Origin: a virus | Taxonomy: Duplodnaviria; Caudoviricetes | Direction: 5' to 3' (one strand) | Length of the DNA: 64,000 nt | IMG/VR virus record: IMGVR_UViG_3300025383_000009 | Shown: one piece after another, positions 7,491 to 64,000 of the stretch | Position numbering within the stretch: the stretch's first letter is position 1 | How the letters are laid out: every line of letters starts with the position of its first letter | Position numbers and translations under genes: made by a program | Notes under the pieces: model-generated | Told to the model about the DNA's origin: nothing | What the model saw: only the letters and a program-made list of their open reading frames with translations | The model's database searches: none

Positions 7491-7826
7491 TTATGGCTTT
7501 AGGCCATACTCCTTGATCACGTTATTTAATAATGGTGAGAACTTAGATAAGTCAATCACCGCTTCTACATTTCCACTGAGGTAATCCTCCATCTCCGATT
7601 CAGTGGGGACCGGAAATCCATAAACACTTTTCAACTTCTTATTCTCTGCTACTATAAGCCAATTAGGATAGCCTAACTTGGGACATCCATCTTCTCTGGC
7701 ATCGACCATAATCTTATGATAGTCTTTTATCTGAGTAAGATCTATAGTCTCATCAGAGTGATTGAAGCGATTCATCACCTCAATCACGTACATCTTTTGT
7801 GTTGGCTTTAGTTCTTTAAATTGCAT
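7491..7826 (-). CDS. Hypothetical protein
   Basis: Co-oriented ORF overlapping cobS. Confidence 0.55.
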   Translation of the reverse strand: MQFKELKPTQKMYVIEVMNRFNHSDETIDLTQIKDYHKIMVDAREDGCPKLGYPNWLIVAENKKLKSVYGFPVPTESEMEDYLSGNVEAVIDLSKFSPLLNNVIKEYGLKP

Positions 7827-9042
7827 CGTTTGTAACCGTAGTTGTTACTGTTTGGCTAGCTGTAGCTGCATTATAAGCATCTGATATAGTTGCATAAGCT
7901 GCAGCATCACTACTATTCACTGGATCATGTAACACTTCTGGTGCTGGGTTTGATATCTTATCAAATACATCCATGAATGCAGCTTTAGTTTGTGGATCGA
8001 AACGGTTACAACATAACTCGATCGCTTTCTCTTTCTTTTTGAAGATTGAGAATGCTCGTACGATATGAGTCATACGACGGGTTGTGATGGTCTCGTCTAC
8101 ACCACCGTCTTCGAATGTGCGACGGATAGCATCAGCCCATTTAATCAATGTGTCTGCAAAGTCTTGGTCCTCACAGTTATAATGCTTCATAAGGTTCTTA
8201 ACGATCTTCATCTCGACTGATGCATTAGGATACTCTTGTTCGAATGTCACTGCGAAACGCTCGAGGAATGCTTCGTTAAGTACGTTTGTGCCGATGTATC
8301 GGCCATCGTCTGAACCTTTACCCTTTGTGTTAGCTGTAGCAATGATGTTAAAGCCAGCAGCTGGAACTATAACCTCGTTCTTAAGCTTGAAGTAGTAAGG
8401 CTTGCCTTCGAGGATAGGCTGTAAACACAATAGTGTGTTAGCTGAACCAGCATCCACTTCGTCAAGCAATAATGTATAACCGTTACGTAGAGCAATCAAT
8501 ACTGGGCCTTCCACGATCTCCACGTTACCATTAATAAGTGTCTTAGCACCAATAAGTTGCTCTTCGTCAGACATCATGTTAAGGTTAACACGAATAAGTG
8601 GCTTACCAAATTTAGCGCAGATCTGCTCGATCATGGTTGACTTACCGTTACCCGTAGGGCCGGAAATATAAGATGGATAGAAAAGTCCAGCTTTGATGAT
8701 CATCTCGAGATCTGAATAGTTGCCAAATGGTACATAGTTTGGGTCCTTGGCTGGGATTAATGTCTCAGGTCTATCGAAGTTTACGATGGCTTGGCTTTCA
8801 ATTTTTACTGGGGTTTGAACCACTGAAAGCACTGGCTTTGGAATTACTGAAGGCACCTTCACGTTATAAACACCACGTGACACCTGACCAGCAATCATGA
8901 ACCAAGGCATAGTATCATAACCTAATGAATTTACCACTGTCATAAGATCGGTCTTACTGATCTCAGGGGTTTTAACTAGACCTGGATAGGTCTCGAATAG
9001 TTTAGCTTGAACTTCAAGCTTTTGTTCACTTTTATATCTCAT
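7816..9042 (-). CDS. cobS: CobS/MoxR-like AAA+ ATPase
   Basis: YISGPTGNGKST, LLLDEVDAG, ATANTKGKGSDDGRYIGTNVLNEAFLERF, typical of T4-like aquatic phages. Confidence 0.92.
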   Translation of the reverse strand: MRYKSEQKLEVQAKLFETYPGLVKTPEISKTDLMTVVNSLGYDTMPWFMIAGQVSRGVYNVKVPSVIPKPVLSVVQTPVKIESQAIVNFDRPETLIPAKDPNYVPFGNYSDLEMIIKAGLFYPSYISGPTGNGKSTMIEQICAKFGKPLIRVNLNMMSDEEQLIGAKTLINGNVEIVEGPVLIALRNGYTLLLDEVDAGSANTLLCLQPILEGKPYYFKLKNEVIVPAAGFNIIATANTKGKGSDDGRYIGTNVLNEAFLERFAVTFEQEYPNASVEMKIVKNLMKHYNCEDQDFADTLIKWADAIRRTFEDGGVDETITTRRMTHIVRAFSIFKKKEKAIELCCNRFDPQTKAAFMDVFDKISNPAPEVLHDPVNSSDAAAYATISDAYNAATASQTVTTTVTNDAI

Positions 9043-11750: not shown

Positions 11751-13469
11751 TTAGGAGTTTGTGACTACGGAACTGAAATCGTTGGTCTTTTCAAAGCGGA
11801 TGTTATTCTTAAACTTATCAAGAAGCACATCACCTTTATGGGATATAACGAACACATTGGTGTTTTCACCCAACGTATCCATCACAGATAGGAAGTAATC
11901 AGTACCAGCCACATCAAGACTAGAATCAAATATCTCATCTAGTAATAGTAAGTTGGTGTTCACTGAGTTTTTCATCTTAGCGATCTGACGCCAAGTGAAT
12001 AAGATTGCGAGATCTATACGCATCTTTTCTCCTTCAGAGAACGAAGCATAAGTGAACTCGTCTCTAAACCTAGATTTAATCGATTCATTGAACGATTCAT
12101 CTAGTTCAAACTTAACAAAGAAGTCCATTGCGGACAGATACATGTTAATTAGTTTGTTCATTGCTGGTAGGTATTCACGTATGATAGTGGTCTTGATACC
12201 AGTATCCTTAAGCAGTACGCTGGAGATCTCTTGTAGTTGTTTCTCTTTCATGAGGTCTATCTTTACTTCATTCTTTGCTAATGCATCGTTAGCGAGTAAC
12301 TTGATCTTATCTTTCTCAGAATCAATATCACCTTGTACAGATAACTCGTTGATCTCTTTCTCGAGTTGTTGGTTTGCTTTGATAAGCATGTTCATACCAT
12401 TGATCTCTGTAGAGATAGAGATGTTTTTATCTTGTATTTGATTTAAGACGTCTTGTTTCTCTTGTAGGTCTACACTCAACTTAGTATAAGCTGAGTTCAG
12501 CGTATCCATGTTGGATGTGATCTGTTGTTTACTTTCAGTTATCTTACTAATGATCTTATCTTTATGTTCGTGCTGTATACCTTGCTCACACGATGGACAC
12601 GTCTCATTACTTGTAAAGAACTCGATATGCTCATCAACTTGTGTAAGCTTTTGTGATAGCTTATTCATGTTTGATTTACACATATCAATATTTTTATCTA
12701 CATCAGCTTTATCATGTAGTTTAGCATTCAACTGTTCGATGTCTTTGTTCATGAGATCTACTAGCTGAGTCTTATCATTTATCTCGTTGATGTTGGCATC
12801 GATCTTATTTCGTAGTATCTGTACGTTTTGATCTTTAGAGTTTTGTAATGAATCAATCAAGCTCTTCTGTGCTTTAGCTTGTTCGGTGATGATACGGATC
12901 TCAGTCTCTACGGCAGATAGCTCTTCTTTATTCTCTGCTATCTTTTCTTTGAGGATAGTATTCATCGTTGAGAATACCTTGATGTCAAGGATATCTTCGA
13001 TGACTTCACGTCTTTGCCATACAGGTAACTGCATGAACGGTACAAAGGAAGCAGATCCTAATATCACTACCTGGGTGAAGGTTTTATAATTAAGTTTTAG
13101 GATCTGCTGTTCGAGGACTTTTTGATAATCTTTTACGGCTGCATCTTGGTTGATGATCGTTCCGTTCTGATATATCTCAAAGATATTAGGTTTGATACCG
13201 CGTACTACTCTATATTGGATAGGACCAATGTCAAACTCAATCTCAACTACGCAGTTCTTTTGATTGATAGAGTTAACAAGTTGGTTCTTATTGATATCAC
13301 GAAATGGTTTATTGAACAGTGAGAAGGTAAGTGCATCAAGGATAGTGGACTTACCTTCACCGTTTTTCCCAACGATTAAGGTTGTTGAGTGACCGTTTAG
13401 TTCTACTTTGTTTGGGGAATTACCTGTTGAAAGAAAGTTTTTCCAATTCACTGACTTAAATATTATCAA
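11751..13469 (-). CDS. gp46: Recombination endonuclease subunit gp46 (SbcC/Rad50-like)
   Basis: WKNFLSTGN, GKNGEGKST, CPSC hook, FSEGEKMRIDLA, LLDEIFD. Confidence 0.97.
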   Translation of the reverse strand: MIIFKSVNWKNFLSTGNSPNKVELNGHSTTLIVGKNGEGKSTILDALTFSLFNKPFRDINKNQLVNSINQKNCVVEIEFDIGPIQYRVVRGIKPNIFEIYQNGTIINQDAAVKDYQKVLEQQILKLNYKTFTQVVILGSASFVPFMQLPVWQRREVIEDILDIKVFSTMNTILKEKIAENKEELSAVETEIRIITEQAKAQKSLIDSLQNSKDQNVQILRNKIDANINEINDKTQLVDLMNKDIEQLNAKLHDKADVDKNIDMCKSNMNKLSQKLTQVDEHIEFFTSNETCPSCEQGIQHEHKDKIISKITESKQQITSNMDTLNSAYTKLSVDLQEKQDVLNQIQDKNISISTEINGMNMLIKANQQLEKEINELSVQGDIDSEKDKIKLLANDALAKNEVKIDLMKEKQLQEISSVLLKDTGIKTTIIREYLPAMNKLINMYLSAMDFFVKFELDESFNESIKSRFRDEFTYASFSEGEKMRIDLAILFTWRQIAKMKNSVNTNLLLLDEIFDSSLDVAGTDYFLSVMDTLGENTNVFVISHKGDVLLDKFKNNIRFEKTNDFSSVVTNS

Positions 13470-47708: not shown

Positions 47709-50700
47709 TTATTTATCTATCTTTTTAGATAGCTCATCTATTTGTTTTTGTTGTTCTTTGATAGCGTTGATTAGGAAACCAAACAAGCCGTTGTAGTTAA
47801 CTGACTTATTACCAGCATCGTCTGTCGTTACGAGGTCTGGTATCACTTCTTCAAGCTCTTGAGCAATAACACCGTAAGACTTCATGCCGTTGTTTTTCCA
47901 TTGGAACTCAACACCGTTTAACTGTGTTATAGTATCAGCAGCGTTCTTGATCTTCTTGATGTTCTTTTTCTTACGCTTATCTGATAGAGAGTTGAATATC
48001 GTAGCGTTGATAGTACCAGTAGATGGGTTAAAGTATAATCCAGCGCTTGCAGTGTATGCAGTAGAGAAAGTACCAGATGTCGCAGATGACATAACTGGAT
48101 AGTATGGACCAGCTGACGCATTATCATTAGTGATCGTAGCACCACCACCTGATGCAGATAATGCAACACCGTTAAGATATATGCTACTGAAGTAACCAGC
48201 TTGTGAAGACATAGAACCGGTAGCACCAACAAAGCCTGTGGCACCTGTTGCACCAGTAACTAAAGCAGGACCAGTAATATTACCAGTTGCAGTGATAGAT
48301 CCTGTAGCTCCTACTGTCGCAGTTCCAACTCCTAATGAACCTAGTATGTATACAGCACCAGTCGCGCCTGTAGCACCAGTAAGTGTACCAAATTGTGCAG
48401 TAAATGCTGAGTTATATGCTGTAGATTGTGTTCCTGCAGGACCAGTAGCACCGTTAGTTCCTGCAGGACCAGTGGCACCGTTAGTTCCTGCTGTACCTGT
48501 AGCTCCGTTAGTTCCGTTAGTTCCTGCAGGACCAGTGGCACCGTTAGTTCCTGCTGTACCTGTAGCTCCGTTAGTTCCGTTAGTTCCTGCAGGACCAGTG
48601 GCACCGTTAGTTCCTGCAGGACCAGTAGCACCTGCAGCGCCAGATGCGCCAGTAACTGATACACCACCAACAGTTAGTGTATTAAAGTATCCTGATAAAC
48701 CTGATATAGAGCCAGTAGCTCCAATAAATCCTGTAGCACCTGTTGCACCAGCAACTATGTTTGATGATGTTAATATATTAGTAGTAACGCCTGTTGCACC
48801 AATCGTACCAACACTTAATGTATTAGTGGTAACACCTGTCGCACCAATAGTTCCAGCAGATAGTGTTGCGATAGTACCAAGTGATGTTAAGCTTGACGCT
48901 GTGATACCAGAACCCAATGTATTTGCACTAAGCACTGACACACCATTGATATAGTATGCTTTGTTTGTACCAGATAAGTTCCAGTTTTCTGAAGCATTCC
49001 AGTAACCAGTGTTTGTTCCACCAGTAGTAGCTGATGATTGCCAGATTAATGTCTTATCTGCTGTACCATGTAATGTTATACCACCGCCTGCTGCTGTAGT
49101 ATCTGTAGGTGTTGTTACTTTACCAAGCTCAACGTTTATATCATTAACGGTTAGAGTAGTTGTATTGATTGTAGTAGTTGTACCATTAACTGTAAGGTTA
49201 CCAGTAACCACTGCATTACCACCAACGTTAAGATCACCTGAGGCATTAATAGAACCTGTTGCACCAGTAGCTCCTGTGCCAATTTCAAGAGTTTGCAGTG
49301 CTGCGTTAGTGGATACTAATGTATTTGTTGTAACACCTGTTGCACCGACTGTGAATGCTGTCAATGCACCAGTAGCACCAAGTGTTGTAGATCCAACTGC
49401 AAGACCACCACCATGTGCAGCTCCACCGCTTGATACGATAGAACCTGTAGCACCAAGTGTTGTAGATCCAACTGCAAGACCACCACCATGTGCAGCTCCA
49501 CCGCTTGATACGATAGAACCTGTAGCGCCAACAGTTCCTCCACCAACGTTTAGTGGAGCGTTCATGTTGATGGCACCAGATGCACCGATAACCATCGCCG
49601 CTGTAGATAAGCTATTAATTACAAAGTAGATAGCATTAGATCCGTATGTACCGATAGCTAGGTCTTGTGACTGTGAACCTAAGTATGCTATACCAGGATT
49701 ACTGAATATACCTGTACCAGAGAACGTTGGTGAGTTGATACCAAGCTCTGCATAGTTAGTTGAGTTTGTAGCAAGTGCATTTGATACAACGAAGTTCGTT
49801 GATGCATTAGCTGTGTTGCTTGTATTTTGTAAAAGTAGTTGGTTATAGTTATCGACTGATGATGACCATGAACCCATGATGTTACCATCTGCATAGTTTA
49901 GTGTACCGTATGCAAACGCACCTTGTGTGCCTGATGCACCTATAGATGCTGTCGCTACATGTGTAGGTGCAGAGAATATACCTGTGCTTGGAGTAAATGA
50001 GTATGTAGTTGCAAGATAGCCGTTAGGCATCGGGCCAGTAGCACCTGTCATGACTGGATAGTATGTTACACCAGTCGCACCTAATCCAATACTACCGATG
50101 ATACCTGTTGCGCCAGTGGCACCATTTATTCCTGCTGTACCGGTCGCACCAGTTGCACCATTTATCCCTGCTGTACCTGTAGCACCATTAGTTCCGTTGG
50201 TTCCTGCTGGACCAGTGGCACCTGTTGCACCATTGATACCTGTCGAACCTGACGCACCTTGTGAACCATTAGTTCCTGCTGGACCGGTTGCACCAGTCGC
50301 TCCACTAATACCTGTCGAACCTGATGCACCTTGCACACCTTGAATACCTTGGATACCTTGAGGACCTGTAGCTCCTGTATTACCGGTAACACCAGTCGCA
50401 CCATTAGTTCCTGCAGAACCAGTCGCACCGTTTGTTCCTGCAGAACCAGTCGCACCGTTTGTACCTGCACTTCCAGTTGCACCTGCAGTCCCTGTTGCAC
50501 CGTTTGTACCGTTAATTCCTGCAGAACCAGTCGCACCGTTTGTTCCTGCTGTACCTGTGGCGCCTGTTAAACCCGTTAATCCTGTAGCACCTTGTACACC
50601 TTGAACTCCAGTAGCTCCGGTTAATCCAGTAGAACCTGATGCACCTTGTACACCTTGAGAACCTGTAGCACCGCTTGCACCTTGTACACCTTGAGAACCT

Positions 50701-51737
50701 GTAGCACCGCTTGCACCTTGGATACCTTGAGAACCTGTTGCACCACTAATACCGGTGGCACCTGTTAAACCAGTAGAACCTGAAGCACCTTGCGTTCCTG
50801 ATACTATACCAAGGAATAACTGGTGATCATTTGCAAAGTTGCTTGTTCCTGTACCTCCGCTAGATACTAAGGTTACAGGTATATCGTACCAGCTATTAGT
50901 ACCGCTTGTTTGGTTTGTTACTGTCCCTGATATTGTCCATATCTGGTAGTTATTAGACAAATTTGCATCTTGAATGATGAACTCTTGACCTTGTTGAAGC
51001 AAAGCAAGATAGATGTCGATGTCAATAGCATTAGTAGAACCACCACTTATAGTGTCTTCTGTTAGGTGACTGACCCAGATGTTTGTTGAACTTATCTGTG
51101 TAGAGTTATTCCATACGATGTATCCATCACCAACGTATGTAGAACCGCTTTGAGTCGTTGTCTTTGCTTGATAGTTGAATATACTGTTTGATTGGCCTGC
51201 TGCACCTTGAGAACCTGTGGCTCCAGTATAACCAGTAGCACCAGTTAATCCTGTACCAGTGGCACCGGTTAAACCTGTAGAACCTGAAGCACCTTGAATA
51301 CCTTGAGCACCTGTTGCACCGGTTAAACCTGTAGAACCTGAAGCACCTTGAATACCTTGAGCACCTGTTGCACCGGTTAAACCTGTAGAACCTGAAGCAC
51401 CTTGAATACCTTGAGTGCCTGTTGCACCAGTATAACCAGTCGCACCAGTTAAACCAGTACTTCCACTTGCTCCTTGAATACCTTGAGAACCTGTAGCTCC
51501 TGTTAAACCTGTGGAACCACTAGCACCTTGAACACCGCTTGCACCTTGAACACCTGTAGCACCAGTATTACCTGTGACTCCAGTTGCTCCTGTTAAACCT
51601 GTTGAGCCTGATGCACCTTGAAGAGTTCCGGTCGCGCCGATCCAATTACCGTATTGGTCGATGACGTCGACGATGCCTGAGGCACCACCAACGGATAGTC
51701 CGTTCTTGATGACGAACGATTTATTGCTTGTAGACAC
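47709..51737 (-). CDS. Collagen-like tail fibre with C-terminal peptidase S74 intramolecular chaperone
   Basis: G-A-T/S triplet runs; [13 protein letters not shown]...[16 protein letters not shown]...VNYNGL coiled-coil end; GTG start. Confidence 0.9.
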
Positions 51738-51776
51738 GGTTCATTTTCCCCAGTGTTTATGTGTATATGTTATTTA

Positions 51777-54700
51777 TTAGTACCCGTATGTGATCTTATC
51801 TAAATCTGTCCTTGATTGGAAGTTACCAGATACGATGTTCACTATCAATGTACTGCCATCCCATGATACTATTGTACCAGCTGCAGGGTTTTGTGGACCT
51901 ATGCCAGCAGAATCAACTGTGATCTCTGTGCCGACCAATGAAGCGAAGTCGATTAAGTTAGACCAGTATGTATCTGGGTATAAGTATGCTTTACCTAATG
52001 GTATCGCGCCGTTATCAGAGTTATTTAATGAGTAGAATAAGTTTAATCCGCTTGGGTCATCAACAGTTGTTCCACCGATACGACCTTGTACAGACTCTCT
52101 TACCCAACTAATCGCTGTGCCAGAAGATGTTGGAGTTACCTTCAATGATATCACTGAACCGTTTGTTACTGCTGTTACATCCATGACTTTCGTAGCTTTA
52201 TCTGATCTTAATGTCGCATACTCAGTCATGTAAACTGCAGACGCATTTTGTGTTAAGATAACTTCTGTAGCTTGTACTTTGTTTGTTGTGCTAACACCTT
52301 GTACGATATACTTAGCTGTACCAACTTCGTTAGCAGCAAACATATCTACTGTTGTTTGTGATGTGCCAGATAATCCTGTTGAACCGTTTGCTAGGCTGTA
52401 ACCTTGTAGACCTGTGTAACCTTGATCACCGTCAGGACCAGTAGCACCTGAAGCACCAGTAATACCAGTAGCACCATCTAAACCGGTTTCACCTTGTATA
52501 CCTTGGTCTCCGTCTAAACCTGTTTGACCTTGTTCACCAGTTACACCTGAAGCACCTTGTACACCAGTAGCACCAGTTGAACCTGTATAACCTTGTTCAC
52601 CGAAAGCACCAGTTGCACCTTTATATCCATTAATACCTGTGGCACCATCTTGACCTGTTACACCTGATGCACCTTCCATACCGACTGCACCGTCAAGGTT
52701 AACATAAAGTGTATCAACTCCTGGAGTACTGTTACCTACTTCTGTTACGATAGTAATATTAATAGTACCAGTAATATTATCATAACTGTTTACTAAAGCT
52801 GTAGCAAAGTTCTCTGAATCTTTAGAGATGATGATAGTTTGACCAGCAGCATATGAATATGAGTAGTCAAGTGTTTGTGAATCTATTTGTATATTGATAT
52901 CACCACTTACATTGATATTTACACCGTTATCAATGTAGTAGTCAGTGTTAAGTAATATTGCTTTGAATCTATGACCATATGAACCAGTTGCACCATCAGT
53001 ACCAGTCTCACCTGTTGGACCTGATGCACCATCGATACCTTGTACACCAGTAGCACCTGTTGCACCGTCTTGACCTGTAGGACCAGTCGCTGCGTCATAA
53101 CCTAAGATACCTTGTTGACCGTCTGGACCTGTTGGACCTTGTACACCTGTAGCACCTGTCTCACCAGTTTGACCTTGATCACCAGTTATACCGATTCCGC
53201 CATCGATACCAGTTGCACCGTCTTGACCTGTTGGACCTGATGCACCATCAATGCCTTGGTTACCGTCTGGACCAGTAGCACCTGTTGCACCAGTTGAACC
53301 TGTGTAACCTATGTTAGTTGCAGCTGTATTACCTAAATATGTGTATCCACTTGGAACATCATGTTGTGGAGTAGTTATTAATTCAAACACAGCACCATCG
53401 AGTGTGCTTACTGCTGGATAACTATGCGATTGAGCTAATAAGAATGGTGAACCGTTAGTATTAGTTGCTGGATCACCGCCTTTTGACCATGCTCCACCGT
53501 TAACTCTTGCCCAAAATACTCCTGTATTATAATTATAATTAACTGCAACTTCTACTAAATCTCCAACGCCCCAATTAATACCTAATGAATCAGTTTGGAT
53601 ACCATTTATCCAAACAGTACCATCTTGTTGGAATCCTTGCGATTGGTCATCATATCTTCCTAATGCATTATTAACATCAATGCCAGATGTTCCTAAGCCA
53701 ATGCGATTAGTAGTAGCAGGTATATCAGCATCTAACCTTACACCAAACATACTTAAACCAGAGTTAGCGTATGTTGCCATTTCAGCAGTAGTTATTGCTG
53801 ATTCAACATAACCAACTGTACCACTTAATATTGTATTTGCGCCGTTACTGCCGCTTGAAATTGTTTGATTAGGCCCATAATGACCATAACCAGTATCAAA
53901 TTGAATTGCAGCTGATGAACCATCACCACCTTGAGCACCAGTAGCACCAGTATAACCTGTTGCACCATCTACACCTGTGTAACCTTGTTCGCCATCAGGA
54001 CCTGTTGCACCATCTAAACCTGTTGAACCTTGGATACCATCAGCACCAGAAGCTCCGTCTATACCAGCTTCACCAGTTGCACCTTGAAATCCTCGTTCAC
54101 CTGTAGCACCAGCAACACCAGTTGCACCAGTTAAACCTACTGTACCTGTAGCACCATCAGCACCAGTTGCACCTCTGGCATTATATGTACGACCTTGCAA
54201 TCCTCGTTCGCCATCGATACCTTGTGCGCCGTCTTGACCGGTAACACCAGTAGCACCAATTTGACCTACTGCTCCGTCAAGGTTGATTACCCATGCGTTA
54301 TGTGAACCAGTACCTACGTGATCTGTTTGTGTAAATGCAAGGATGTTTGTTACTGGATCGTAACTTGTAACTGTACCATGTTGATGTATACCACCACCAT
54401 CGGTAAGAATAATTGTTTCACCACCACCATAACTTAATCTTTCATCTACGACTACAACTCCTGTAGCACCTGTAGATGCAAGTGTAAATGCAGTGGTTGA
54501 AGAAGTTTTGTATCTGTGACCATATGAACCAGTTGCACCAACTTCACCTGTTTGACCTGTTGCACCTATGTAACCAGCATTTCCTGTTACACCACGACGT
54601 AAGAATGTGAATCCGCTTGGAACACCGTATTCAGCAACATCATTGATAGTAAATTGTGCAGGACCATTAGAACCATAGATACCTACTGCTGGATAAACAC

Positions 54701-55886
54701 CAGCACTAAATACAGAATTATCAACTGATAAACCGCCAACACCAGTAGCTGGATCATTAGAGATATTACCATTCCAGTAACCATTGTTTACTCTGAACCA
54801 TATTAAATGGTTATCAGTGTCTACAGCTATATCAATCTTGTCTCCACTAGTATAGCTATCATAATGAGTTACATATGAACCAGCATAATAGATATCACCG
54901 TTTTGCGTATAAGCTATGGAGTTTTCATCAGGACCACCAAGCATAGCATTAAGATCAACATTACTGTTTGCGATACCAACTGAATTAGCGTTGTCACTAA
55001 AGTAATCGAAGGTAAAGCTGAACATGTAAGCATTGCCGCCGGCAATGTTTTGAGTACCTAGCGCATTATAGTAACCTTCGTTATCATCTGAAATTGTGAA
55101 GTAGTCGTCATTTGGGTAATATAACTGACTACCGATATAAGCTGGATCGAATACGTATGTGTTTGCAATGTAACCACCGAATCCACCTGTAGCACCATCA
55201 AGACCTGTTGGACCTTGATCACCTGTTACACCTTGAACACCAGTAGCACCGTCATAACCTTGTGCACCATCTTGACCAGTTACACCTTGAGAACCTGTAG
55301 CACCTTGGGCGCCTGTTGCTCCTGTAGCACCTGTCTCACCAGTTGGGCCAGTTGCACCTGCATAACCTGTATTTGTAGCAGCGCTATATCCTGTAATTGT
55401 GATTGTTGCATTTACTGGAATATCACCTAAAGTTATAGGTGTGTTTGTTAAACCTAAGAAAGATATATCACCTTGATCTACATAATTATAAACTGTGTAT
55501 GTAACTGAGTTATATACAAACGTCATTCCTGGTGCAGGAGTAGCTGATAGCGCTCTACCATCAATACGAATGTAGCTACCGTAGAGCGTTGGATATACTA
55601 ACCAAGCGTTATCTAATGCAGCTGTTACAGTTGCATCGATTGATACATATGTACCACCATTACCGCCTGTAGCACCTGTTTGACCAGTTACACCAGAAGC
55701 ACCATCAATACCGGTAGCACCAGTAGATCCTGTCTCTCCTCTAACACCTGTTGCACCGTATGGTGATTCACCTGGACCAGAAGCTCCGACCCATTCACCA
55801 GCTGTGTTGATGACCTCAAATCCAGAGGCACCGACCGCTAGTCCGTTCTTGACGTTAAACTTTATATCATTGGTTGGTAGTGACAC
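51777..55886 (-). CDS. Collagen-like fibre protein with two SPRY/B30.2-like domains
   Basis: Gly-X-Y runs interrupted by GD(K/L)(I/V)xxAV...WxRVNxGxW...YPAV domains; GTG start. Confidence 0.85.
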
Positions 55887-55914
55887 GTGCCTATCTCCTG
55901 AATTTTATTTGTTA

Positions 55915-58191
55915 TTAAGCTAGTACTGCTTCTCTTAAGAAGTCGATTGTTGTGTTTGTATTTACTGGTGATACTTTAACGTATACTGTACCAGAGTCAT
56001 AGTTTGCACTTACAGTCATTAGAGACGCTGTTGAGTACATCGTTGCATACTCTGTAACTGAAGCATCTGAACCATCATGCGTTACCAATACTTCTGTTGA
56101 GTGTACATCGCTACCATGTGTAGCTTGGATGATATACTTAGCTGTCCTGTAAACTGTAGCATCATATGAATCGATAGTTTGGTTAGCAACTGTAGTTGTT
56201 AATGGATCGTTTCCTGCAGTTAAACCTGTACCTGTAGCACCAGTTAAACCTGTTGAACCACTTGCACCTTGGTAACCAGTAGCTCCATCTAATCCTTGAG
56301 GACCTGTTGCTCCTGTGAAACCTGAAGCACCTTGGATACCAGTTGCACCAGTATAACCTGTTGCACCAGTATAACCAGTCGCACCATCTACACCTTGAGG
56401 ACCTGTTGCACCAGTGAAACCTGTAGCACCTGATGCACCTTGGAAACCAGTGGCACCTGAAGCACCATCGATACCTGTTGCACCTGTGTAACCAGTTGCA
56501 CCTTGAACACCTTGTGCACCATCAAGGTTAACTGTCCATGCTGTATGTTCACCTGAACCAACTGCTGTTGTCTTGTCGAATACTAATTGGTCACCGCTGT
56601 AACTTACAACTGTACCTAATTGATAATTTGTATCATCGTAAGCAACTACGATTGATTGAGCTGGAGTATAAGCTAAACCAGAATCAACTGTTAATGTGAT
56701 TTGACCAGTTCCGCCGATAGTGAATCTTGAAGTTGATGATGTTGCATAGAGGTCACCGTTAGCACCGCTAGCACCAGCAATACCTGTTGCACCTGTGTAA
56801 CCAGTTGCACCATCGATACCTGTAGCACCTGAAGCGCCGTCAATACCAGTTGCACCAGTATAACCGGTTGCACCATCGATACCTGAAGCACCGTCAATAC
56901 CTGTCGCACCTGTGTAACCTGTAGCACCATCGATACCAGTTGCACCTGTATAACCTGTAGCACCAGTATAACCTGTCGCGCCACTTGCACCGTCGATACC
57001 TGTAGCACCTGTATAACCTGTTGCACCATCGATACCAGTTGCGCCTGAAGCACCTTGATATCCTTGTACACCATCGTTACCTTGAGCACCTGTTGCACCA
57101 CTTGCACCTACTGGACCAGTAGCACCTGTATCACCAGTATAACCTGTAGCGCCGTCAGCACCAGTTGCACCTGAAGCTCCTTGAATACCTGTCGCACCGC
57201 TTGCACCATCAGCACCGGTTGCACCAGAAGCACCATCAATGCCTGTTGCACCGCTAGCACCTTGAAAACCAGTAGCACCTGATGCACCTTGATCTCCTTG
57301 AGAACCGGTTGCACCTGTGTAACCAGTGGCGCCTGAAGCACCTTGGAAACCTGTAGCACCTGATGCACCATCGGCACCTGTAGCACCGCTTGCACCTTGA
57401 ATACCTGTTGCACCTGTATAACCTGTAGCACCTTGAACACCGACAGCACCATCAAGGTTTACTGTCCATGCTGTATATTGTGTGCCTGTTGCATGATCTG
57501 CGGTTGTGATGATTAAATCTAATTGACCAGTACCTGAATTGTAGTTATCTACATAACCGATTACATAATCGGTAGGATTAGTTTGAGAAGCAACTAATAC
57601 TGATTGTTGTGGAGTATATGAAAGACCAGTTTCTACATTAATTGTTAATGTAACACCAAGAGCGTAGTCTGTAAGTGTTAATGGATCAGTTGAGGTTGTT
57701 GCGTATTTGTCACCGTTAAGACCGGCAGAACCTGTTGCACCTGTTTGACCAGTTGCACCTGTATAACCTGTAGCACCTGATGCACCATCGATACCAGTTG
57801 CACCAGTATAACCTGTAGCACCTGTGTAACCTGTTGCGCCGTCAATACCTGTTGCACCTGTAACACCAGTAGCACCTGTATAACCTGTAGCACCATCTAT
57901 ACCAGTTGCACCACTTGCACCATCAATACCAGTAGCACCTGTATAACCTGTGGCACCATCAGCACCCGTGGCACCTGATGCACCATCGATACCGGTTGCA
58001 CCGGTATAACCGGTTGCACCGTCAATACCTTGGACACCTGTTGCACCTGTGTAACCTGTGGCACCTGTAGCTCCAGCAGGAAGTTCGGCTCCTATCCAAT
58101 TACCGTTTTCGTCAATGACGTCAATTATGCCTGACGCACCCCCTACGGATAGCCCGTTTCTTACTACAAAAGTTGAATTATTCGTTGCCAC
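55915..58191 (-). CDS. Collagen-like fibre protein
   Basis: GATG(Y/I)(T/D) repeats; shared N-terminal and C-terminal modules; GTG start. Confidence 0.88.
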
Positions 58192-58232
58192 AGTTTGATC
58201 TCCTTGATGATGGTGTTAGTGCTTTATACTAT

Positions 58233-58240
58233 TATTTATA
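58233..58240 (-). promoter_or_regulatory. Late promoter TATAAATA
   Basis: Exact consensus before the collagen fibre gene. Confidence 0.7.
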
Positions 58241-58250
58241 ATAAATTTAT

Positions 58251-59855
58251 TTAGAGTCCTATCGTAGTTCTTATGTATTTTATATCAGTATAAGGACTTT
58301 GGGGCGTAAATCTTAACTCAATATAGCCTGTCCCAGACCATTGAATACGTGATACTATTAATAAAGGTGATCTACTTTCAACAGTAGATGCTACGTATAC
58401 ACCTGGGCTAGTCATGATAAACTTACTACTAAGAGTCGCTGATATAGCTCCTCCATTTAATGATATTACTGTTGTAGGTATTGCTGATAGTAATGCTTGT
58501 ACTGCTGAATTTGATGTAGAGTATATAGTTAATGTTGTTCCAGTCCAGAACGACAGAGCCGAAATGTTGATATCTGGTGATGAATAGTCATTATCTACAG
58601 GTGAGTAATACGTAGCGAATGATCCTAATGATTCACCCATACCTGCATACTCTGTAAAGAATACGTTTGCTTTATCCCATAAGAGTAATAACTCTTCAGC
58701 ATAGTAGTTTGTACCTTTTGTCAGCTGTACCTGATACTTTGCACTCCTATATATTGAGGTATCTAAGATGTCTATTAGCTGTTCATCTGTTGTGTTATTG
58801 GTGGTAAAGTCAATTACGTTGTCTACACCAATACCAGATGCACCTACAGGACCTTCGATACCTGTTGCACCTGTAATACCTATAGGTCCAGTAGCACCAG
58901 TCGCTCCAGCACCCTGTGCACCTGTGGCACCGTATGGACCAGTAGCACCTGGTAAACCTACTCCAGTTGCTCCTGCAATACCGCTTGCTCCTTGTGTACC
59001 AGAAGCACCTTGAATTCCAGTAGCACCTGTTTGACCTGTGGCACCTTGTGTACCTGTCGCTCCAGTTAAACCTGTTGAACCACTTGCACCTTGAATTCCA
59101 GTAGCACCTGTTTGACCTGTGGCACCTTGTGTACCTGTCGCTCCATCCAAACCAATAGTACCAGAAGCACCATCGATACCACTAGCTCCTTGTGGACCAG
59201 TAGCACCTGTTGCACCAGAACCTGATGCTGTTGCAGATATAGTTAATGATTGTGGGTTTGCTGAATGATCTGTTGTGATGGTGATACCAGTACCACCAAT
59301 GATATGTAGTGTATCTTCTGCTACAGCTACGAGGTCTGTCTGACCGTCTACTTTGATAGTCTTGAACGCAGAACCAAGACTTACTTTAACTTCACCGCCA
59401 CCAAGATCTGATACGTTGAATCCTGTATCCCTATCGAACCTTAGAGCGTTTACACCTGTTACTTCGTTAGTGATTGATCCTGTAGCACCACCAGTTGCAC
59501 CACTGATGTTACTTACCGTGATGTTTGCAACACCAACACCGCTCGCACCAGTTACACCGCTTGCACCTTGTGCACCGCTGGCTCCGATACCAGATGCACC
59601 TTGTGTACCTATTGCACCGCTTGCACCTTGAATGCCTTGTTGACCTTGTGCACCTGATGCACCAATACCTGAAGCGCCTTGTTCTCCTTTAGGACCTGTA
59701 GCACCGCTTGCACCCTGTGGGCCTGATGCACCACCTGTATCTCCCTGTGGGCCTGTTGCACCAGTAGGACCGGTAGCACCAAAGCCAGCACCGTTACCTG
59801 ATAGCCCTTGTATACCAACGGCCGCGACTTCTACGTATACGTCTCCTAATGCCAT
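58251..59855 (-). CDS. Collagen-like fibre protein
   Basis: GAS/GAT/GPQ triplets; YRSAKYQVQ module. Confidence 0.85.
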
Positions 59856-59864
59856 TCTTATTCC

Positions 59865-60218
59865 TTATATGATCTCTGGAGGATCAGATTGCGTTATTTG
59901 TGGTGTGAATATAATAACACCTTCTGAGACTCTTAATGATTCTCCAAAAGGTGATGTCACGTATACATCATACATGTATCTTCCAGGTTTAATCGATGCA
60001 GTATCAGCTGCAGACAATGATAGTCTTACTTGTCCACCTGTAGTAGAGTATACTTCAGCATGAAAGTCAATATGATTATGAGCTATATAAGACTTACGTA
60101 TGTAAGCCCGAGTAGTAAAACCCGATAAGTTTAGTGGCAGTCCGTCTGAACCCACCACAGTGATTACTGCACCAAAGTTTGATCCAGTGTCAATATAAAA
60201 ATTTGTTATAGCTGCCAT
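59865..60218 (-). CDS. Conserved T4-like fibre/baseplate adaptor (BppU N-terminal-like)
   Basis: NFYIDTGSNF...LNLSGF...IRKSY...GQVRLSLSAADT..IKPGRYMYDV...RVSEG. Confidence 0.65.
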   Translation of the reverse strand: MAAITNFYIDTGSNFGAVITVVGSDGLPLNLSGFTTRAYIRKSYIAHNHIDFHAEVYSTTGGQVRLSLSAADTASIKPGRYMYDVYVTSPFGESLRVSEGVIIFTPQITQSDPPEII

Positions 60219-60246: not shown

Positions 60247-61623
60247 TTAAATTGGTTGTATGCTTATAATCTTCTTACCAGTCTTAGGTTCTGGTATCCC
60301 TTTTACAGCTCCGATGATGTCTTTTCTAGACTCATCAAGGTCTCCGTCAATATAGTATGGGAGACATCCTGTTAACATCTCAAACGCAGCCATGAAGAAC
60401 GGTATGTTATCAGAGTAAGCGTTATCACATGCTAGGCTCCACATATCTCCATGTAAAAACATGCATGAACCTTGACATATCTGTAATACTGGACATGTAG
60501 GACACTCTTCTCTATGACTCCAGTGTGTACTAGTCTTTAACTTGATGTTGTCAAAGTCATTAACGTTACCGATAAGGTGACTCTCACCATTAAATCCTAT
60601 AGCTACAGAGCTAACGTTTTGACATGTTAGCACGTTACCTTTTAAATCTACTGCAATATTGTGTTCATCATCCATCGTACACTTCTGACCTACAGCAACA
60701 GCTGGTCTTTTGGTTTGTATAGATGTTATGAACTCGTTGATCTTCTTCTTAGTGGCACCAACATTAGTTCCAAGTCCACTTCTTACTTCTTTAAACGTAT
60801 TAGCTCGATAGTTAAGGTGATCGTGTTCATCAGTAAAACAAACGCTAGCACCACCTTCATCATATGGATCAATGAACCCACCTTCTCCGATAGGTACATC
60901 AAACCCAAGTTTATCTTTAAACCATTGACTTATGGCTGCACGGCTTTGGTTATCTTTATTCACCATAGCGTTAAAGCTCATACGATTCTTTGGTCCTAAC
61001 CTATTCCATAGATCCATGATCATCGCGAATTGTTCTGGATCATCGAATGGGTCTAACCCTCTAACATGATAACCTGGTCCATCATGTGATATACCAACAC
61101 TAAACCCTAAGTTATCAAGCCATTCATTCTTTTCTAAGTCTAATATAGTACCATTAGTCACTATACCAAATGCTATGTTTGGATACATCTTCCTCATGCC
61201 TTCAGCAAGAGGCTTTAGACTCTTCCAATATACAAAGGGCTCACCACCCCAAAATTCTACTTTAACTCCAGTACCGTCTTTATTATCACCACCATCAAAC
61301 CATGTTGGTAGTTGATCTAAGAACGGACCTACATCATCCTTTGTCATCTCATCAGCTTTAGGTACAAACCTTTGACTGCAGTAGACACATTCATAATTAC
61401 AAGATAAGCCTAGCTGTATCTTGAGGATCTTAATATCTTTACTCTTTTTTGCTGGAGTGTCTTTACTTGTAGTAAACACTTCTTTATAGGAACGAGTATT
61501 ACCGTTACTAAAATCTATCACGTTTCCATTTGCATCTGATATCTCAGAAGTCATGTTATCATACCAAAACTCTACATCTTCATTTGTTACAGGTCTCACA
61601 CATTTTATATTAAACTTCGCCAT
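60247..61623 (-). CDS. Radical SAM/SPASM-domain enzyme (anSME/AslB-like peptide or protein maturase)
   Basis: CNYECVYC (CxxxCxxC), FWGGEP, TNGT, ISHDGP; SPASM cysteines KC...GNVLTC...ECPTCPVLQICQGSC...AC. Confidence 0.92.
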   Translation of the reverse strand: MAKFNIKCVRPVTNEDVEFWYDNMTSEISDANGNVIDFSNGNTRSYKEVFTTSKDTPAKKSKDIKILKIQLGLSCNYECVYCSQRFVPKADEMTKDDVGPFLDQLPTWFDGGDNKDGTGVKVEFWGGEPFVYWKSLKPLAEGMRKMYPNIAFGIVTNGTILDLEKNEWLDNLGFSVGISHDGPGYHVRGLDPFDDPEQFAMIMDLWNRLGPKNRMSFNAMVNKDNQSRAAISQWFKDKLGFDVPIGEGGFIDPYDEGGASVCFTDEHDHLNYRANTFKEVRSGLGTNVGATKKKINEFITSIQTKRPAVAVGQKCTMDDEHNIAVDLKGNVLTCQNVSSVAIGFNGESHLIGNVNDFDNIKLKTSTHWSHREECPTCPVLQICQGSCMFLHGDMWSLACDNAYSDNIPFFMAAFEMLTGCLPYYIDGDLDESRKDIIGAVKGIPEPKTGKKIISIQPI

Positions 61624-61643: not shown

Positions 61644-62288
61644 TTATAATGTAACGTAATTCCTTACAGATTCAACAACCTTTATGTTAGTAACTAATGC
61701 AATAGTATCAACGCTTCCTAAGTTAACTTCAGTAGTATGGAATATTGAAGAAGGATGTATAGTAAATGTTCCTAGTACAGGACTTATTGGGAATAACATC
61801 TCATGATTCAATAATCTACTTCTTGAAGAAATAGGATCGATTATGTGTAACCTATTTCCTGCAGGTTTTTGATGAGTATTATTATTTGGAAAGTCTGTGA
61901 CTTCCATAGATACCCATAAAACTGCCACGTAGTCAACGCTTCTATGATTGTGAGGCTTTGCATACTCACCAGGAGCAAACTTACGTAAGCTAGTGATAGC
62001 TTCAAACTCTACTTCTTCTGGATTAATAAAACCTTCAGCTGCAGCTAACTGAGCCATCCTAGATTTTAACATACTTTTAAATAGCTGGCATTCTGGACGA
62101 GGATCAGCTAGTAAGTTATAAGCTGCCTCTTTTGACTTACGCATATAATAAGGGACATGAGCCTCAGGATGCTGAGCTTCATATTCTTCACCAATACTAA
62201 TAATATTCTTTAAAAAATCATCAGTAGCTTCAACCGCTCTTTGTTCAATAAGAATATTGGTTGGCCATAGTTGTGCAATATTAGTCAA
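61644..62288 (-). CDS. Fe(II)-dependent oxygenase, TIGR02466-like double-stranded beta-helix
   Basis: PGEYAKPHNH...YVAVLW...L..IDP...HPSSIFHTT. Confidence 0.7.
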   Translation of the reverse strand: MTNIAQLWPTNILIEQRAVEATDDFLKNIISIGEEYEAQHPEAHVPYYMRKSKEAAYNLLADPRPECQLFKSMLKSRMAQLAAAEGFINPEEVEFEAITSLRKFAPGEYAKPHNHRSVDYVAVLWVSMEVTDFPNNNTHQKPAGNRLHIIDPISSRSRLLNHEMLFPISPVLGTFTIHPSSIFHTTEVNLGSVDTIALVTNIKVVESVRNYVTL

Positions 62289-63057
62289 GTGTTACTACCT
62301 TAGTAGATACGCCAGTCCAGTATTTGTATCCAGTTTTAATTGTTACTACTTCACCAGCATTTAATCCAGTAGTGTCTAAGTTAAATGTACCACCATTCGT
62401 TACACGTGATCTATTAATTACACCAATATCAGATGAAAGATAAACCGTAGTGTTTGCTGGAGCCGTCACTGTATATGCATGTGTATCACCAGCTTTAATA
62501 GTACTTGGTCCATTAACTATGATAGGTAACCATGATTCTAAGAATGCATGCATCGATACTATAGATGTAGATGAAGGAGCTGATCCGTTAACTGTGATGT
62601 TTGCACCATCTCTAAATATGATAGTTAGTTCGCTGGTAGGACAATCCTTATATGGTGTTAAGATATACAAGTAACCATATGAAGAGTATCTACTGTTGAT
62701 AACTGACCATGGTGAACCTGGATATGTTTTACCTTCTGCCGCTGGTGTCACATCAGTTTTTTGATAGATCATACCTGGATCACCTCCGCCCTTTTCACTT
62801 AATGAAAGTTGTGTAGTCTCCATAGCCATGAATTCTTGAGTATCTGGGATATGCATTGCTTTTGGAAACAACGCGATACATCCATGATCCTGAGAATATT
62901 TTTGTACTAGTTCTGCTAGATTGAATGTACCAACAGCATTGGTTGTTCCAATTGCAGTAACAGTAGTATCAGAAATCTCCAATGTCAAGATATCATTTTT
63001 GATAGTGACATCGTTTTTTGATAACGTTCTTGTTGTACTTAGTGAGTAAAAATTCAT
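62281..63057 (-). CDS. Hypothetical protein in the radical SAM operon (beta-rich, Ig-like C-terminus)
   Basis: Overlaps the oxygenase start; C-terminal IIVNGPSTIKAGDTHAYTV. Confidence 0.65.
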   Translation of the reverse strand: MNFYSLSTTRTLSKNDVTIKNDILTLEISDTTVTAIGTTNAVGTFNLAELVQKYSQDHGCIALFPKAMHIPDTQEFMAMETTQLSLSEKGGGDPGMIYQKTDVTPAAEGKTYPGSPWSVINSRYSSYGYLYILTPYKDCPTSELTIIFRDGANITVNGSAPSSTSIVSMHAFLESWLPIIVNGPSTIKAGDTHAYTVTAPANTTVYLSSDIGVINRSRVTNGGTFNLDTTGLNAGEVVTIKTGYKYWTGVSTKVVTLD

Positions 63058-63081: not shown

Positions 63082-63447
63082 TTAGCAATTACATGCACAG
63101 TTACAGTTATAGTTTTGTAAAGTTAAAGCTCCGGAAGCACCAGTAGCACCGTTCCAATATAATCCCCAAACTCCACTTGTAAGGTGACCTACTCCTCCTC
63201 TTCCGCTACCGCATGCGCTAATAACACCACTGTTAAGGTTATCACCGCTTATGAGGTTTCCAGCTGATAAGAATGGTCCATAGTTACCAAGATCATTAGT
63301 AAACTGACTTAGTGCTGTTGGTCTTCCAACTATACCTGTGGCTCCTGTAGCGCCTGATGCACCTACAGTGCCCCATACAAATGATGCTGTACTTAAAGTA
63401 GTACCATCACCAAATTTTATATCACCATTTTCTAATATCGTTGCCAT
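63082..63447 (-). CDS. Small fibre-like protein with C-terminal NCNCACNC tail (candidate rSAM substrate)
   Basis: Ends LQNYNCNCACNC*; shares FGDxTTLS and LSQFTNxLGNY with its neighbour. Confidence 0.8.
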   Translation of the reverse strand: MATILENGDIKFGDGTTLSTASFVWGTVGASGATGATGIVGRPTALSQFTNDLGNYGPFLSAGNLISGDNLNSGVISACGSGRGGVGHLTSGVWGLYWNGATGASGALTLQNYNCNCACNC

Positions 63448-63456
63448 TTATTATCC

Positions 63457-63960
63457 TTAGCAGTTACAGTTGCAATTACAATTATTAGCATTGATTGACA
63501 AAGTTGTACCATTCCAGTTTAAGTGTCTTGGACCATATTCATTATATGCATAGTAACCTGATAATGTCATCTGATAAAGTTTTGTACTAGCTAAATTTTG
63601 TGAAACGCTGACCACATATACTCCAGTACCTCCTGTAGCGCCTGAAGTCTGTGATACAAAATATGTACCGTTTGCAACACCAACACCGTTTAATGCATTA
63701 GGACCAAGATTATTGCCGATAGCTATGCTACCAGATATGATACTTGTTACAGTTAGATTGGTTCCTGATATACTTCCAATAAAAACTGCAGCATGACTTA
63801 AATTATCAATTGTAATAAATGGATAGTAGTTGCCAAGATTATTAGTAAACTGACTAAGATTAGTAGGAGCACTAGTTAATTGTGATTGTGTAACATTTGC
63901 AGAAGATAGTGTGGTGTTATCTCCAAAAACTAATGATCCATTTGTTATTTTTGTTGACAT
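63457..63960 (-). CDS. Small fibre-like protein with C-terminal NCNCNCNC tail (candidate rSAM substrate)
   Basis: Ends NANNCNCNCNC*; has no other Cys. Confidence 0.8.
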   Translation of the reverse strand: MSTKITNGSLVFGDNTTLSSANVTQSQLTSAPTNLSQFTNNLGNYYPFITIDNLSHAAVFIGSISGTNLTVTSIISGSIAIGNNLGPNALNGVGVANGTYFVSQTSGATGGTGVYVVSVSQNLASTKLYQMTLSGYYAYNEYGPRHLNWNGTTLSINANNCNCNCNC

Positions 63961-63968
63961 CTATTATC

Positions 63969-64000
63969 CTAACAATTACAGTTACAGTTACAGTTGCAAT
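63969..64000 (-). CDS. 3' end of a third (Asn-Cys)n-tailed ORF, truncated by the window edge
   Basis: Minus strand reads xAT TGC AAC TGT AAC TGT AAC TGT AAT TGT TAG = ...CNCNCNCNC*. Confidence 0.8.
   Translation of the reverse strand, partial: CNCNCNCNC

What the first reader, a model, noticed from the sequence alone, without database searches (positions are those of the whole stretch)
63082..64000. Family of tandem paralogues with conserved leader-like motifs and a terminal Asn-Cys dipeptide repeat
Seen: the tails are NCNCACNC*, NCNCNCNC* and (x)CNCNCNCNC*. The two complete ORFs share N-terminal NGxxxFGDxTTLS, internal LSQFTNxLGNY and pre-tail WNG...L motifs, but their middles differ (121 vs 167 aa). 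The gene junctions are near-identical (TAAGGATAATAAATG and TAGGATAATAGATG). Cys codons mix TGT/TGC and Asn codons mix AAC/AAT, so the repeat is kept at protein level and is not just a microsatellite. Inference: this is a constant recognition region, variable cargo and a constant modified core, the precursor logic of RiPPs.
Basis: partly seen in the sequence, partly recalled or inferred. Interest (0 to 1): 0.8.

Follow-up and report, generated by a model that had tools for sequence, protein, structure and literature searches.

The report
Phage fibre proteins with enzyme-modified Asn-Cys tails
Three small tail-fibre-type proteins of a contractile-tailed phage end in an Asn-Cys repeat that, across hundreds of phages and prophages, almost always sits just upstream of one particular radical-SAM enzyme, so phages probably cross-link their fibre tips with chemistry so far known only from bacterial peptide natural products.

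Summary
Three tandem minus-strand genes (121 aa, 167 aa, and a 94-aa one that runs off the window) end in NCNCACNC, NCNCNCNC and NCNCNCNCNC. They share the stated motifs and near-identical junctions.

The reading as a RiPP precursor is only half right.
- **Supported:** the tail is tightly coupled to the SPASM-type radical SAM enzyme 1.5 kb downstream. Starting from the tail, 37 of 38 loci with enough flank carry the enzyme, against 0 of 25 chance matches. Starting from the enzyme, 57 of 62 viral loci and 53 of 54 bacterial-genome loci carry the tail.
- **Not supported:** the N-terminal motifs are not a leader. The same tail and enzyme occur on 80-686-aa tail fibres with unrelated N-terminal anchors. 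The LSQFTNxLGNY block is a piece of a full-length fibre. In some phages the tail is followed by a self-cleaving Hint or S74-like domain.

Most likely reading: virion mini-fibres whose C-terminal N-C-N-C-x-C-N-C tail is cross-linked by the enzyme, probably through Cys-Asn thioethers. A conserved two-β-sandwich protein and 2OG oxygenases are accessories. The chemistry is inferred, not shown.

I found no paper describing this. This scan has found the same cassette before on other DNA (e1-3435272, e1-3503540, e1-3503543).

The parts
63969..64000 (-). 3' end of paralogue A (94 aa; the rest lies beyond the window, genome 80308-80592). The five-Cys tail NCNCNCNCNC occupies about 63972-64000.
63457..63960 (-). 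Paralogue B, 167 aa, a mini-fibre with a 75-aa fibre-like insert. The tail NCNCNCNC is at 63460-63483.
   Evidence: (phrog_38233 tail fiber, E 1.1e-9)
63082..63447 (-). Paralogue C, 121 aa, with a short collagen-like insert ([13 protein letters not shown]). The tail NCNCACNC is at 63085-63108.
62281..63057 (-). 258-aa conserved partner (family F2), built of two beta-sandwich/Ig-like domains. It lies directly after the tail gene in most loci. Its function is unknown.
   Evidence: (pLDDT 83.6)
61644..62288 (-). 214-aa 2OG-Fe(II) oxygenase-like protein, an accessory present in about a third of cassettes.
   Evidence: PF13759, 24 bits, below the cut-off of 27; phrog_81, E 1.5e-12
60247..61623 (-). 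458-aa radical SAM enzyme with a full SPASM domain. CX3CX2C is at C75/C79/C82; the auxiliary-cluster Cys are C315, C334, C374, C377, C383, C387 and C399. All are invariant in 23 homologues.
   Evidence: phrog_1802, E 2e-68; TIGR04085, 33.9 bits, above the cut-off of 27
59865..60218 (-). 117-aa LtfC-like beta-sandwich (tail-fibre assembly type), downstream of the rSAM in a subset of cassettes.

Best explanation
The three genes encode small tail-fibre-type virion proteins (mini-fibres A, B and C) of a myovirus. Their extreme C-terminus, consensus N-C-N-C-x-C-N-C, is the substrate of the co-transcribed radical SAM/SPASM enzyme.

By analogy with Cys-rich substrates of SPASM enzymes, the enzyme most probably abstracts an H atom from Asn (or Asp). 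It then joins that carbon to a neighbouring Cys sulfur, giving several thioether cross-links. These could lie within a chain (each N-C-N-C is an NxxC motif) or between the chains of a fibre. The product would be a compact, covalently knotted fibre tip.

The 2OG oxygenase may add a second modification such as Asn/Asp hydroxylation. The 258-aa beta-sandwich protein may present or cap the tail.

Shown: gene anatomy, conservation, and the near-obligate tail-enzyme linkage on fibre proteins.

Inferred: that the enzyme acts on the tail (about 0.8), that the proteins are in the virion (about 0.75), and that the chemistry is thioether formation (about 0.45).
For: **Linkage**
- Tail-first: 37/38 loci against 0/25 chance matches; the rSAM is on the same strand in 56/56, usually 16-3100 bp downstream.
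- Enzyme-first: 48 C-terminal tails plus 9 tails followed by another domain (Hint, S74-like or an unidentified 'SKIIC.KL' domain), of 62 viral loci; 50 + 3 of 54 bacterial-genome loci.
- All catalytic and SPASM Cys of the enzyme are invariant.

**Fibre nature**
- The carriers have typical fibre N-termini and lie in fibre modules.
- There is homology to a 364-aa fibre and a match to a tail-fibre PHROG.
- Where the tail is internal, it is mostly followed by a Hint-type domain (CFPAGT...) or an S74-like one (SDDTLK...). If these self-cleave as their families do, the tail is again the mature end.

**Chemistry by analogy**
- The best full-length family alignment is to the PapB ranthipeptide maturase.
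- NxxcB links Cys to the Asn beta-carbon at an NxxC motif, and PapB links Cys to Asp (PMC8326336).
- Asn (75-84%) and Asp (5-6%) dominate the position before Cys. Asn is kept at three of the four x positions in homologues found without using the pattern.
Against: - There is no experimental datum: no mass spectrometry, no structure and no virion proteomics.
- The enzyme scores far below the cut-off of every curated maturase family, so its chemistry cannot be read from homology.
- The enzyme-substrate complex prediction gave no verdict.
- The monomer model of the 94-aa protein is poor (pLDDT 52.5).
- A few enzyme-first loci show no tail: 5 of 62 and 1 of 54.
- Ralstonia phage RSP15 has only a degenerate tail (...NCQCGN).
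- The Asn/Asp statistics are biased by the NCNCNCNC search pattern.
Confidence: 0.6

Rival explanations
1. The enzyme-tail pairing on fibre proteins is the same, but the chemistry differs. Options include Cys to formylglycine or dehydroalanine (as with anSME), epimerisation, C-C or C-O cross-links, or methylation.
For: The enzyme also aligns full-length to the anSME and DynA profiles, and its best PDB hits are a cyclopropylglycine synthase (8VPO) and anSME. Every curated family scores far below its cut-off, so the reaction type is open.
Against: The anSME substrate motif C/S-x-P/A-x-R is absent. Substrates that combine many Cys with Asn/Asp acceptors are, in the known cases, thioether substrates (PMC8326336).
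Confidence: 0.2
2. The alternating Cys form a metal- or Fe-S-binding needle on the axis of a trimeric fibre, like the HxH iron sites of the T4 gp37 tip. The radical SAM protein then acts only indirectly, or on another target.
For: The ligand residue alternates at the distal end of fibre proteins. The Cys are invariant while one x position varies freely. A short collagen-like insert in paralogue C hints at trimers. Note e1-5320561 raised this reading.
Against: Linkage to the enzyme is near-obligate, which a plain metal site would not need. Asn is conserved at three of the four non-Cys positions, so both faces of the strand are constrained.
Confidence: 0.1
3. The proteins are true RiPP precursors. 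An N-terminal leader is recognised, the tail is modified, and a small peptide is released with a role outside the virion.
For: The proteins are small (89-167 aa) with a conserved N-terminus and a Cys-rich C-terminal core next to an rSAM/SPASM enzyme.
Against: The same tail and enzyme occur on 200-686-aa fibres with other N-termini. The conserved internal motif is part of a fibre. No protease or exporter was found in the genes scanned. The genes lie inside the structural operon.
Confidence: 0.05

Closest known systems
NxxcB / NxxcA (streptococcal RaS-RiPP, ranthipeptide type)
   Same: An rSAM/SPASM enzyme with a substrate carrying the NxxC motif. The known product is a Cys-S to Asn-C(beta) thioether (PMC8326336). 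Every N-C-N-C here contains an NxxC.
   Different: NxxcA is a short secreted peptide with one cross-link and quorum-sensing-type regulation. Here the motif is an overlapping repeat at the C-terminus of phage fibre proteins. Enzyme homology to NxxcB was not tested.
PapB / freyrasin (NCBIfam NF047865)
   Same: This is the best full-length profile alignment of the enzyme (residues 65-388). PapB makes multiple Cys to Asp beta-thioethers in a repeat substrate. Asp replaces Asn in some of the tails here.
   Different: The score is 56.7 bits against a cut-off of 340. The freyrasin motif is CxxxD, not xCxC. Freyrasin is a bacterial peptide, not a virion protein.
QhpD / QhpC of quinohemoprotein amine dehydrogenase (TIGR03906)
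   Same: An rSAM/SPASM enzyme that installs Cys to Asp/Glu thioethers in a protein that stays part of a larger assembly (from my own knowledge). It gives a weak profile hit.
   Different: The score is 35 bits against a cut-off of 453. It belongs to a periplasmic enzyme subunit and has no repeat tail.
CXXX-repeat rSAM systems (TIGR04115) and other Cys-repeat phage fibre tails noted earlier by this scan
   Same: The theme is the same: a Cys-repeat end on fibre-module proteins next to rSAM enzymes (e1-479434, e1-1916123).
   Different: Cys spacing is xC rather than CxxxC. There is one rSAM rather than two. TIGR04115 finds nothing in this genome.
T4 gp37 HxH iron-binding fibre tip, and lambda gpL Fe-S tail tip
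   Same: A metal-ligand residue recurs at the distal or tip part of a phage tail structure (from my own knowledge).
   Different: Those use His or four scattered Cys and need no dedicated enzyme.

Membership tests
Radical SAM / SPASM-domain enzymes | CX3CX2C cluster motif, and a Radical_SAM domain above the Pfam cut-off | tested here: met
   C75/C79/C82 are invariant. PF04055 scores 31.2 bits against a cut-off of 29.5.
Radical SAM / SPASM-domain enzymes | SPASM seven-Cys motif for two auxiliary 4Fe-4S clusters | tested here: met
   TIGR04085 scores 33.9 bits against a cut-off of 27. C315, C334, C374, C377, C383, C387 and C399 are invariant.
PapB-family ranthipeptide maturase (NF047865) | Score above the curated cut-off | tested here: not met
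   56.7 bits against 340.
Ranthipeptide / NxxC systems | Substrate with Cys donors and Asn/Asp acceptors in a fixed spacing | tested here: met
   N-C-N-C-x-C-N-C gives N(i)...C(i+3). Asn or Asp precede 80-90% of the tail Cys.
Ranthipeptide / NxxC systems | A thioether bond is actually formed | not testable with these tools
   This needs mass spectrometry or NMR.
Anaerobic sulfatase-maturating enzyme (TIGR03942) | Score above the cut-off, and a C/S-x-P/A-x-R substrate motif | tested here: not met
   41.8 bits against 349. No such motif is present in the tails.
CXXX-repeat rSAM system (TIGR04115) | Maturase of that family, and Cys at every fourth residue | tested here: not met
   No match in the genome at E <= 10. 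Cys here falls at every second residue.
RiPP precursor (leader-core, released peptide) | A conserved leader shared by the enzyme's substrates, and a protease or exporter in the cluster | tested here: not met
   The substrates have unrelated N-termini. No protease or transporter family was found in the flanking genes scanned.
Phage tail-fibre proteins | Homology to fibre modules, and a location in the fibre/baseplate gene block | tested here: met
   phrog_38233, E 1.1e-9. Alignment to a 364-aa fibre. The genes lie between an S74-chaperone fibre and collagen-like fibres.
Phage tail-fibre proteins | Presence in the virion, and trimeric assembly | not testable with these tools
   The monomer model is poor. 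No trimer prediction was available.

The most novel reading that the evidence does not exclude
A phage-encoded radical SAM enzyme staples the three chains of a fibre tip together with inter-chain Cys-Asn thioethers. That would be the first radical, RiPP-type covalent modification of a virion structural protein. In this phage lineage the cross-linked tip has been split off as three interchangeable mini-fibres (A, B, C), which may diversify host recognition.
Probability: 0.25. Interest if true: 0.9.

Novelty: new variant of a known kind. Interest (0 to 1): 0.75.

Why it matters
If the enzyme does cross-link the tails, RiPP-type radical chemistry is used to build part of the virus particle, at the end of the fibre that meets the host. 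That would be an unrecognised step in phage assembly.

It would also matter practically. Fibres from these phages might not fold or function when expressed without the enzyme, which bears on phage engineering and receptor-binding-protein swaps. The system would supply a compact, genetically encoded cross-linking tag. It would also add a large, phage-borne clade to the peptide-modifying rSAM enzymes.

The cassette is common in phages and prophages of freshwater and soil Burkholderiales (Limnohabitans, Polaromonas, Polynucleobacter, Burkholderia, Ralstonia, Achromobacter). Cultivable test systems therefore exist.

Tried and rejected
- **Enzyme-substrate complex** (rSAM + 3 x 4Fe-4S + SAM + the 94-aa protein): median score 0.23, under the mark of 0.32. 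This gives no verdict and is evidence neither way.
- **Monomer fold of the 94-aa protein:** pLDDT 52.5, uninformative.
- **Fold searches with the 258-aa partner:** only generic Ig-like hits in the PDB, uncharacterised phage proteins in BFVD, and nothing usable in the ESM Atlas. Its role stays open.
- **tblastn of the 167-aa protein against GenBank phages:** no match.
- **Pfam and NCBIfam on the three tail proteins and the partner:** nothing significant.
- **Literature:** six topical searches (rSAM + tail fibre/thioether/phage; SPASM + receptor-binding protein; ranthipeptide + phage; NxxC; phage JWF; phage-encoded RiPP) found no description of this pairing. The phage-related hits opened proved irrelevant. 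The library lacks most subscription journals.
- **Heterotrimer of A+B+C:** considered but not adopted. The collagen-like insert is present in only one paralogue, which weakly favours separate homotrimers. This was not tested.

Full report
**1. What is in the sequence**

The window is bases 16340-80339 of a 127.6-kb IMG/VR virus record. The record encodes a major head protein, portal, large terminase and tail sheath, so it is a myovirus.

On the minus strand at the window's right edge lie three tandem small genes.
- C: 63082-63447, 121 aa.
- B: 63457-63960, 167 aa.
- A: its stop is at 63969-63971 and it runs off the window. Read from the whole genome it is 94 aa.

They end in NCNCACNC, NCNCNCNC and NCNCNCNCNC. 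They share an N-terminal NGxxxFGDxT(T/S)LS block and an LSQFTNxLGNY block; B and C also share WNG...L before the tail (A2).

Upstream is a 303-aa fibre with a Peptidase_S74 chaperone domain. Downstream, on the same strand, come in order:
- a 258-aa protein with no family match;
- a 214-aa 2OG-Fe(II)-oxygenase-like protein;
- a 458-aa radical SAM enzyme (phrog_1802);
- an LtfC-like protein;
- four collagen-like fibres.

**2. The enzyme**

It carries CX3CX2C and the complete SPASM Cys set, all invariant in 23 homologues. It passes the Pfam Radical_SAM and NCBIfam SPASM cut-offs but falls far below the cut-off of every curated maturase family. The best hits are the geopeptide maturase, PapB, CbpB and anSME. 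The best PDB sequence hits are a cyclopropylglycine synthase (8VPO; PMC10878394) and anSME. It is therefore a peptide- or protein-modifying rSAM/SPASM enzyme of no described subfamily. The CXXX-repeat maturase model TIGR04115 finds nothing in this genome.

**3. Is the tail tied to the enzyme?**

Three independent routes say yes.

(a) Close relatives. All contigs of close relatives with enough flank keep three tail genes, and these form orthologous sets. A has five Cys. B has EYGP..L.WNG. C has ACGSGRGG.GHLTSG.

(b) Tail-first.
- Among ORFs of 65 aa or more with the motif within 12 residues of the end and at least 4 kb of downstream sequence, 37 of 38 have an rSAM homologue.
- Among chance matches (short low-complexity ORFs, giant-virus bins), 0 of 25 do.
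- The enzyme is on the same strand in 56 of 56 cases, mostly 16-3100 bp downstream.
- Many contigs are near-duplicates, but 46 distinct gene layouts remain.

(c) Enzyme-first, which is blind to the tail.
- Of 62 viral loci with 42-61% identical enzymes and at least 4 kb upstream, 48 have an N/D-C-rich C-terminal tail. Nine more have the run followed by another domain. Five show none.
- Of 54 loci in GTDB genomes, 50 have the tail, 3 have the tail plus Hint, and 1 has none.
- The bacterial records are mostly freshwater or soil Burkholderiales: Limnohabitans, Polaromonas, Rhodoferax, Polynucleobacter, Burkholderia paludis and Paraburkholderia.
- In GenBank, the enzyme's relatives are in Ralstonia phage RSP15 and Achromobacter phages JWF and 2-1, in each case next to fibre genes.
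- JWF gp028 reads ...NCNCDCNCNCSC and then a Hint domain. RSP15 has only a degenerate ...NCQCGN end.

**4. What the carriers are**

They are fibre proteins, not leader peptides.
- Tail-bearing proteins range from 67 to 686 aa. They start with several unrelated but typical fibre N-termini (MQNYTEIPSS..., MASITAPSITLRSTKGSPLTN..., MAITRIPKAGLDD..., and others).
- One 364-aa example shares 62% identity over its first 100 residues with the S74 fibre next to our genes. Its residues 297-330 align to residues 20-53 of mini-fibre A, including the LSQFTNDLGNY block.
- The extra 75 residues of B match tail-fibre PHROGs. The extra 11 residues of C are four Gly-X-Y triplets.
- Where the run is internal, it is mostly followed by a Hint-type start (CFPAGT...; weak Pfam Hint hits) or by an S74-like SDDTLK... 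segment. If these domains self-cleave as their families do, the run again becomes the mature C-terminus. The 'SKIIC.KL' domain that follows the run in the remaining cases has no family match.
- A profile of the mini-fibres finds 161 proteins in 5.8 billion, all unnamed. Of the best 120, 117 end in (xC)3 or more.
- The consensus tail is N-C-N-C-x-C-N-C, where x is N, A, V, Q, Y, R, H, L or F. The Cys and three of the four Asn are constrained.

**5. The rest of the cassette**

Among the 46 distinct layouts that hold both a tail gene and a full-length enzyme:
- the 258-aa family is present in 36, and directly follows the tail gene in 26;
- a 2OG-oxygenase-like gene of one of four families is present in 17;
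- three tail genes occur only in this phage's lineage (8 layouts).

The 258-aa protein models confidently as two beta-sandwiches (pLDDT 83.6). It resembles only uncharacterised phage proteins. The oxygenase keeps invariant His and Asp residues.

**6. Mechanism**

Shown: a conserved, intact rSAM/SPASM enzyme is co-encoded, in the late structural block, with fibre proteins whose only common feature is the Asn-Cys tail.

Inferred: the enzyme modifies that tail. The likeliest reaction is thioether formation between Cys sulfur and an Asn/Asp carbon.
- NxxcB does exactly this at an NxxC motif.
- PapB does it to Asp in a repeat substrate (PMC8326336).
- QhpD does it inside a protein subunit (my own knowledge).

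Links could be intra-chain or, in a trimeric fibre, inter-chain. The oxygenase might hydroxylate Asn/Asp, as AspH or FIH do (my own knowledge; speculative). The beta-sandwich partner might present or cap the tail (speculative). Other radical chemistries on the same tail remain open. A plain metal-binding needle fits the alternating Cys, but it does not explain the obligate enzyme or the conserved Asn.

**7. Comparison and novelty**

The system works like a ranthipeptide or SCIFF-type maturation but fails the membership test of every curated family. Its substrates are virion fibre proteins rather than released peptides.

I found no paper on it in six topical searches.

This scan has met the same cassette before on other DNA (e1-3435272, e1-3503540, e1-3503543), and related Cys-repeat fibre tails with other rSAM families (e1-479434, e1-1916123). 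My tests here were run independently and agree with those notes.

New in this window:
- the split of the tip into three orthologous mini-fibre genes;
- the N-C-N-C-x-C-N-C consensus;
- the near-universal 258-aa partner;
- the recurrent 2OG oxygenases;
- the Burkholderiales host range.

**8. Verdict**

The RiPP-precursor reading is partly supported: the modified core holds, the leader does not. The feature is a real and widespread variant of rSAM maturation, undescribed as far as I could find, applied to phage fibres. Its chemistry is unproven.

Noticed in passing
L023, L031, L075, L091, L117 (IMG/VR loci): A separate flavour: 67-82-aa proteins ending ...HTH(I/L)F(F/Y)DDYST(A/N)CNCNCNC(x)C.RG.., in loci with rSAM genes only 23-26% identical to the window's. 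L023 holds three rSAM genes.
   Followed up: partly
L087, L114, L130: Tandem 98- and 134-aa proteins with long C-Q-S/C-Q-G/C-Q-T repeats that end ...NCNCNCNCSNCDCGDDGG, next to a 22-23% identical rSAM. This is another Cys-repeat variant.
   Followed up: no
L030, L181, L190, L194, L199, L201, L207, L209, L212: In one sub-clade the tail-bearing gene lies downstream of the rSAM. There the Asn-Cys run is followed by a conserved domain of about 165-185 aa starting SKIIC(A/T)KL..., which has no Pfam match. It may be another removable or assembly domain.
   Followed up: no
L005 4796-6247 (Achromobacter phage JWF gp028), L155, L188, L189, L245, L271, L291: These tail fibres have a Hint (intein-like) domain immediately after the Asn-Cys run (...NC.C|FPAGT...). 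That implies autoproteolytic exposure of the tail.
   Followed up: partly
window 63082-63447 and 63457-63960: Compared with all orthologues, this phage's C paralogue has gained a four-triplet collagen-like insert and its B paralogue a 75-aa fibre-like insert. The mini-fibres therefore accept module insertions between the N-terminal block and the tail.
   Followed up: partly
window 47709-59855: Four large Gly-Ala-Thr-rich collagen-like fibre genes (534-1369 aa) lie directly downstream of the cassette. Earlier notes on this genome also recorded them.
   Followed up: no
window 7816-9042 and 11751-13469: A CobS/porphyrin-biosynthesis-type ATPase (phrog_249) and an SbcC-like nuclease subunit (phrog_77) lie among the replication genes.
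   Followed up: no
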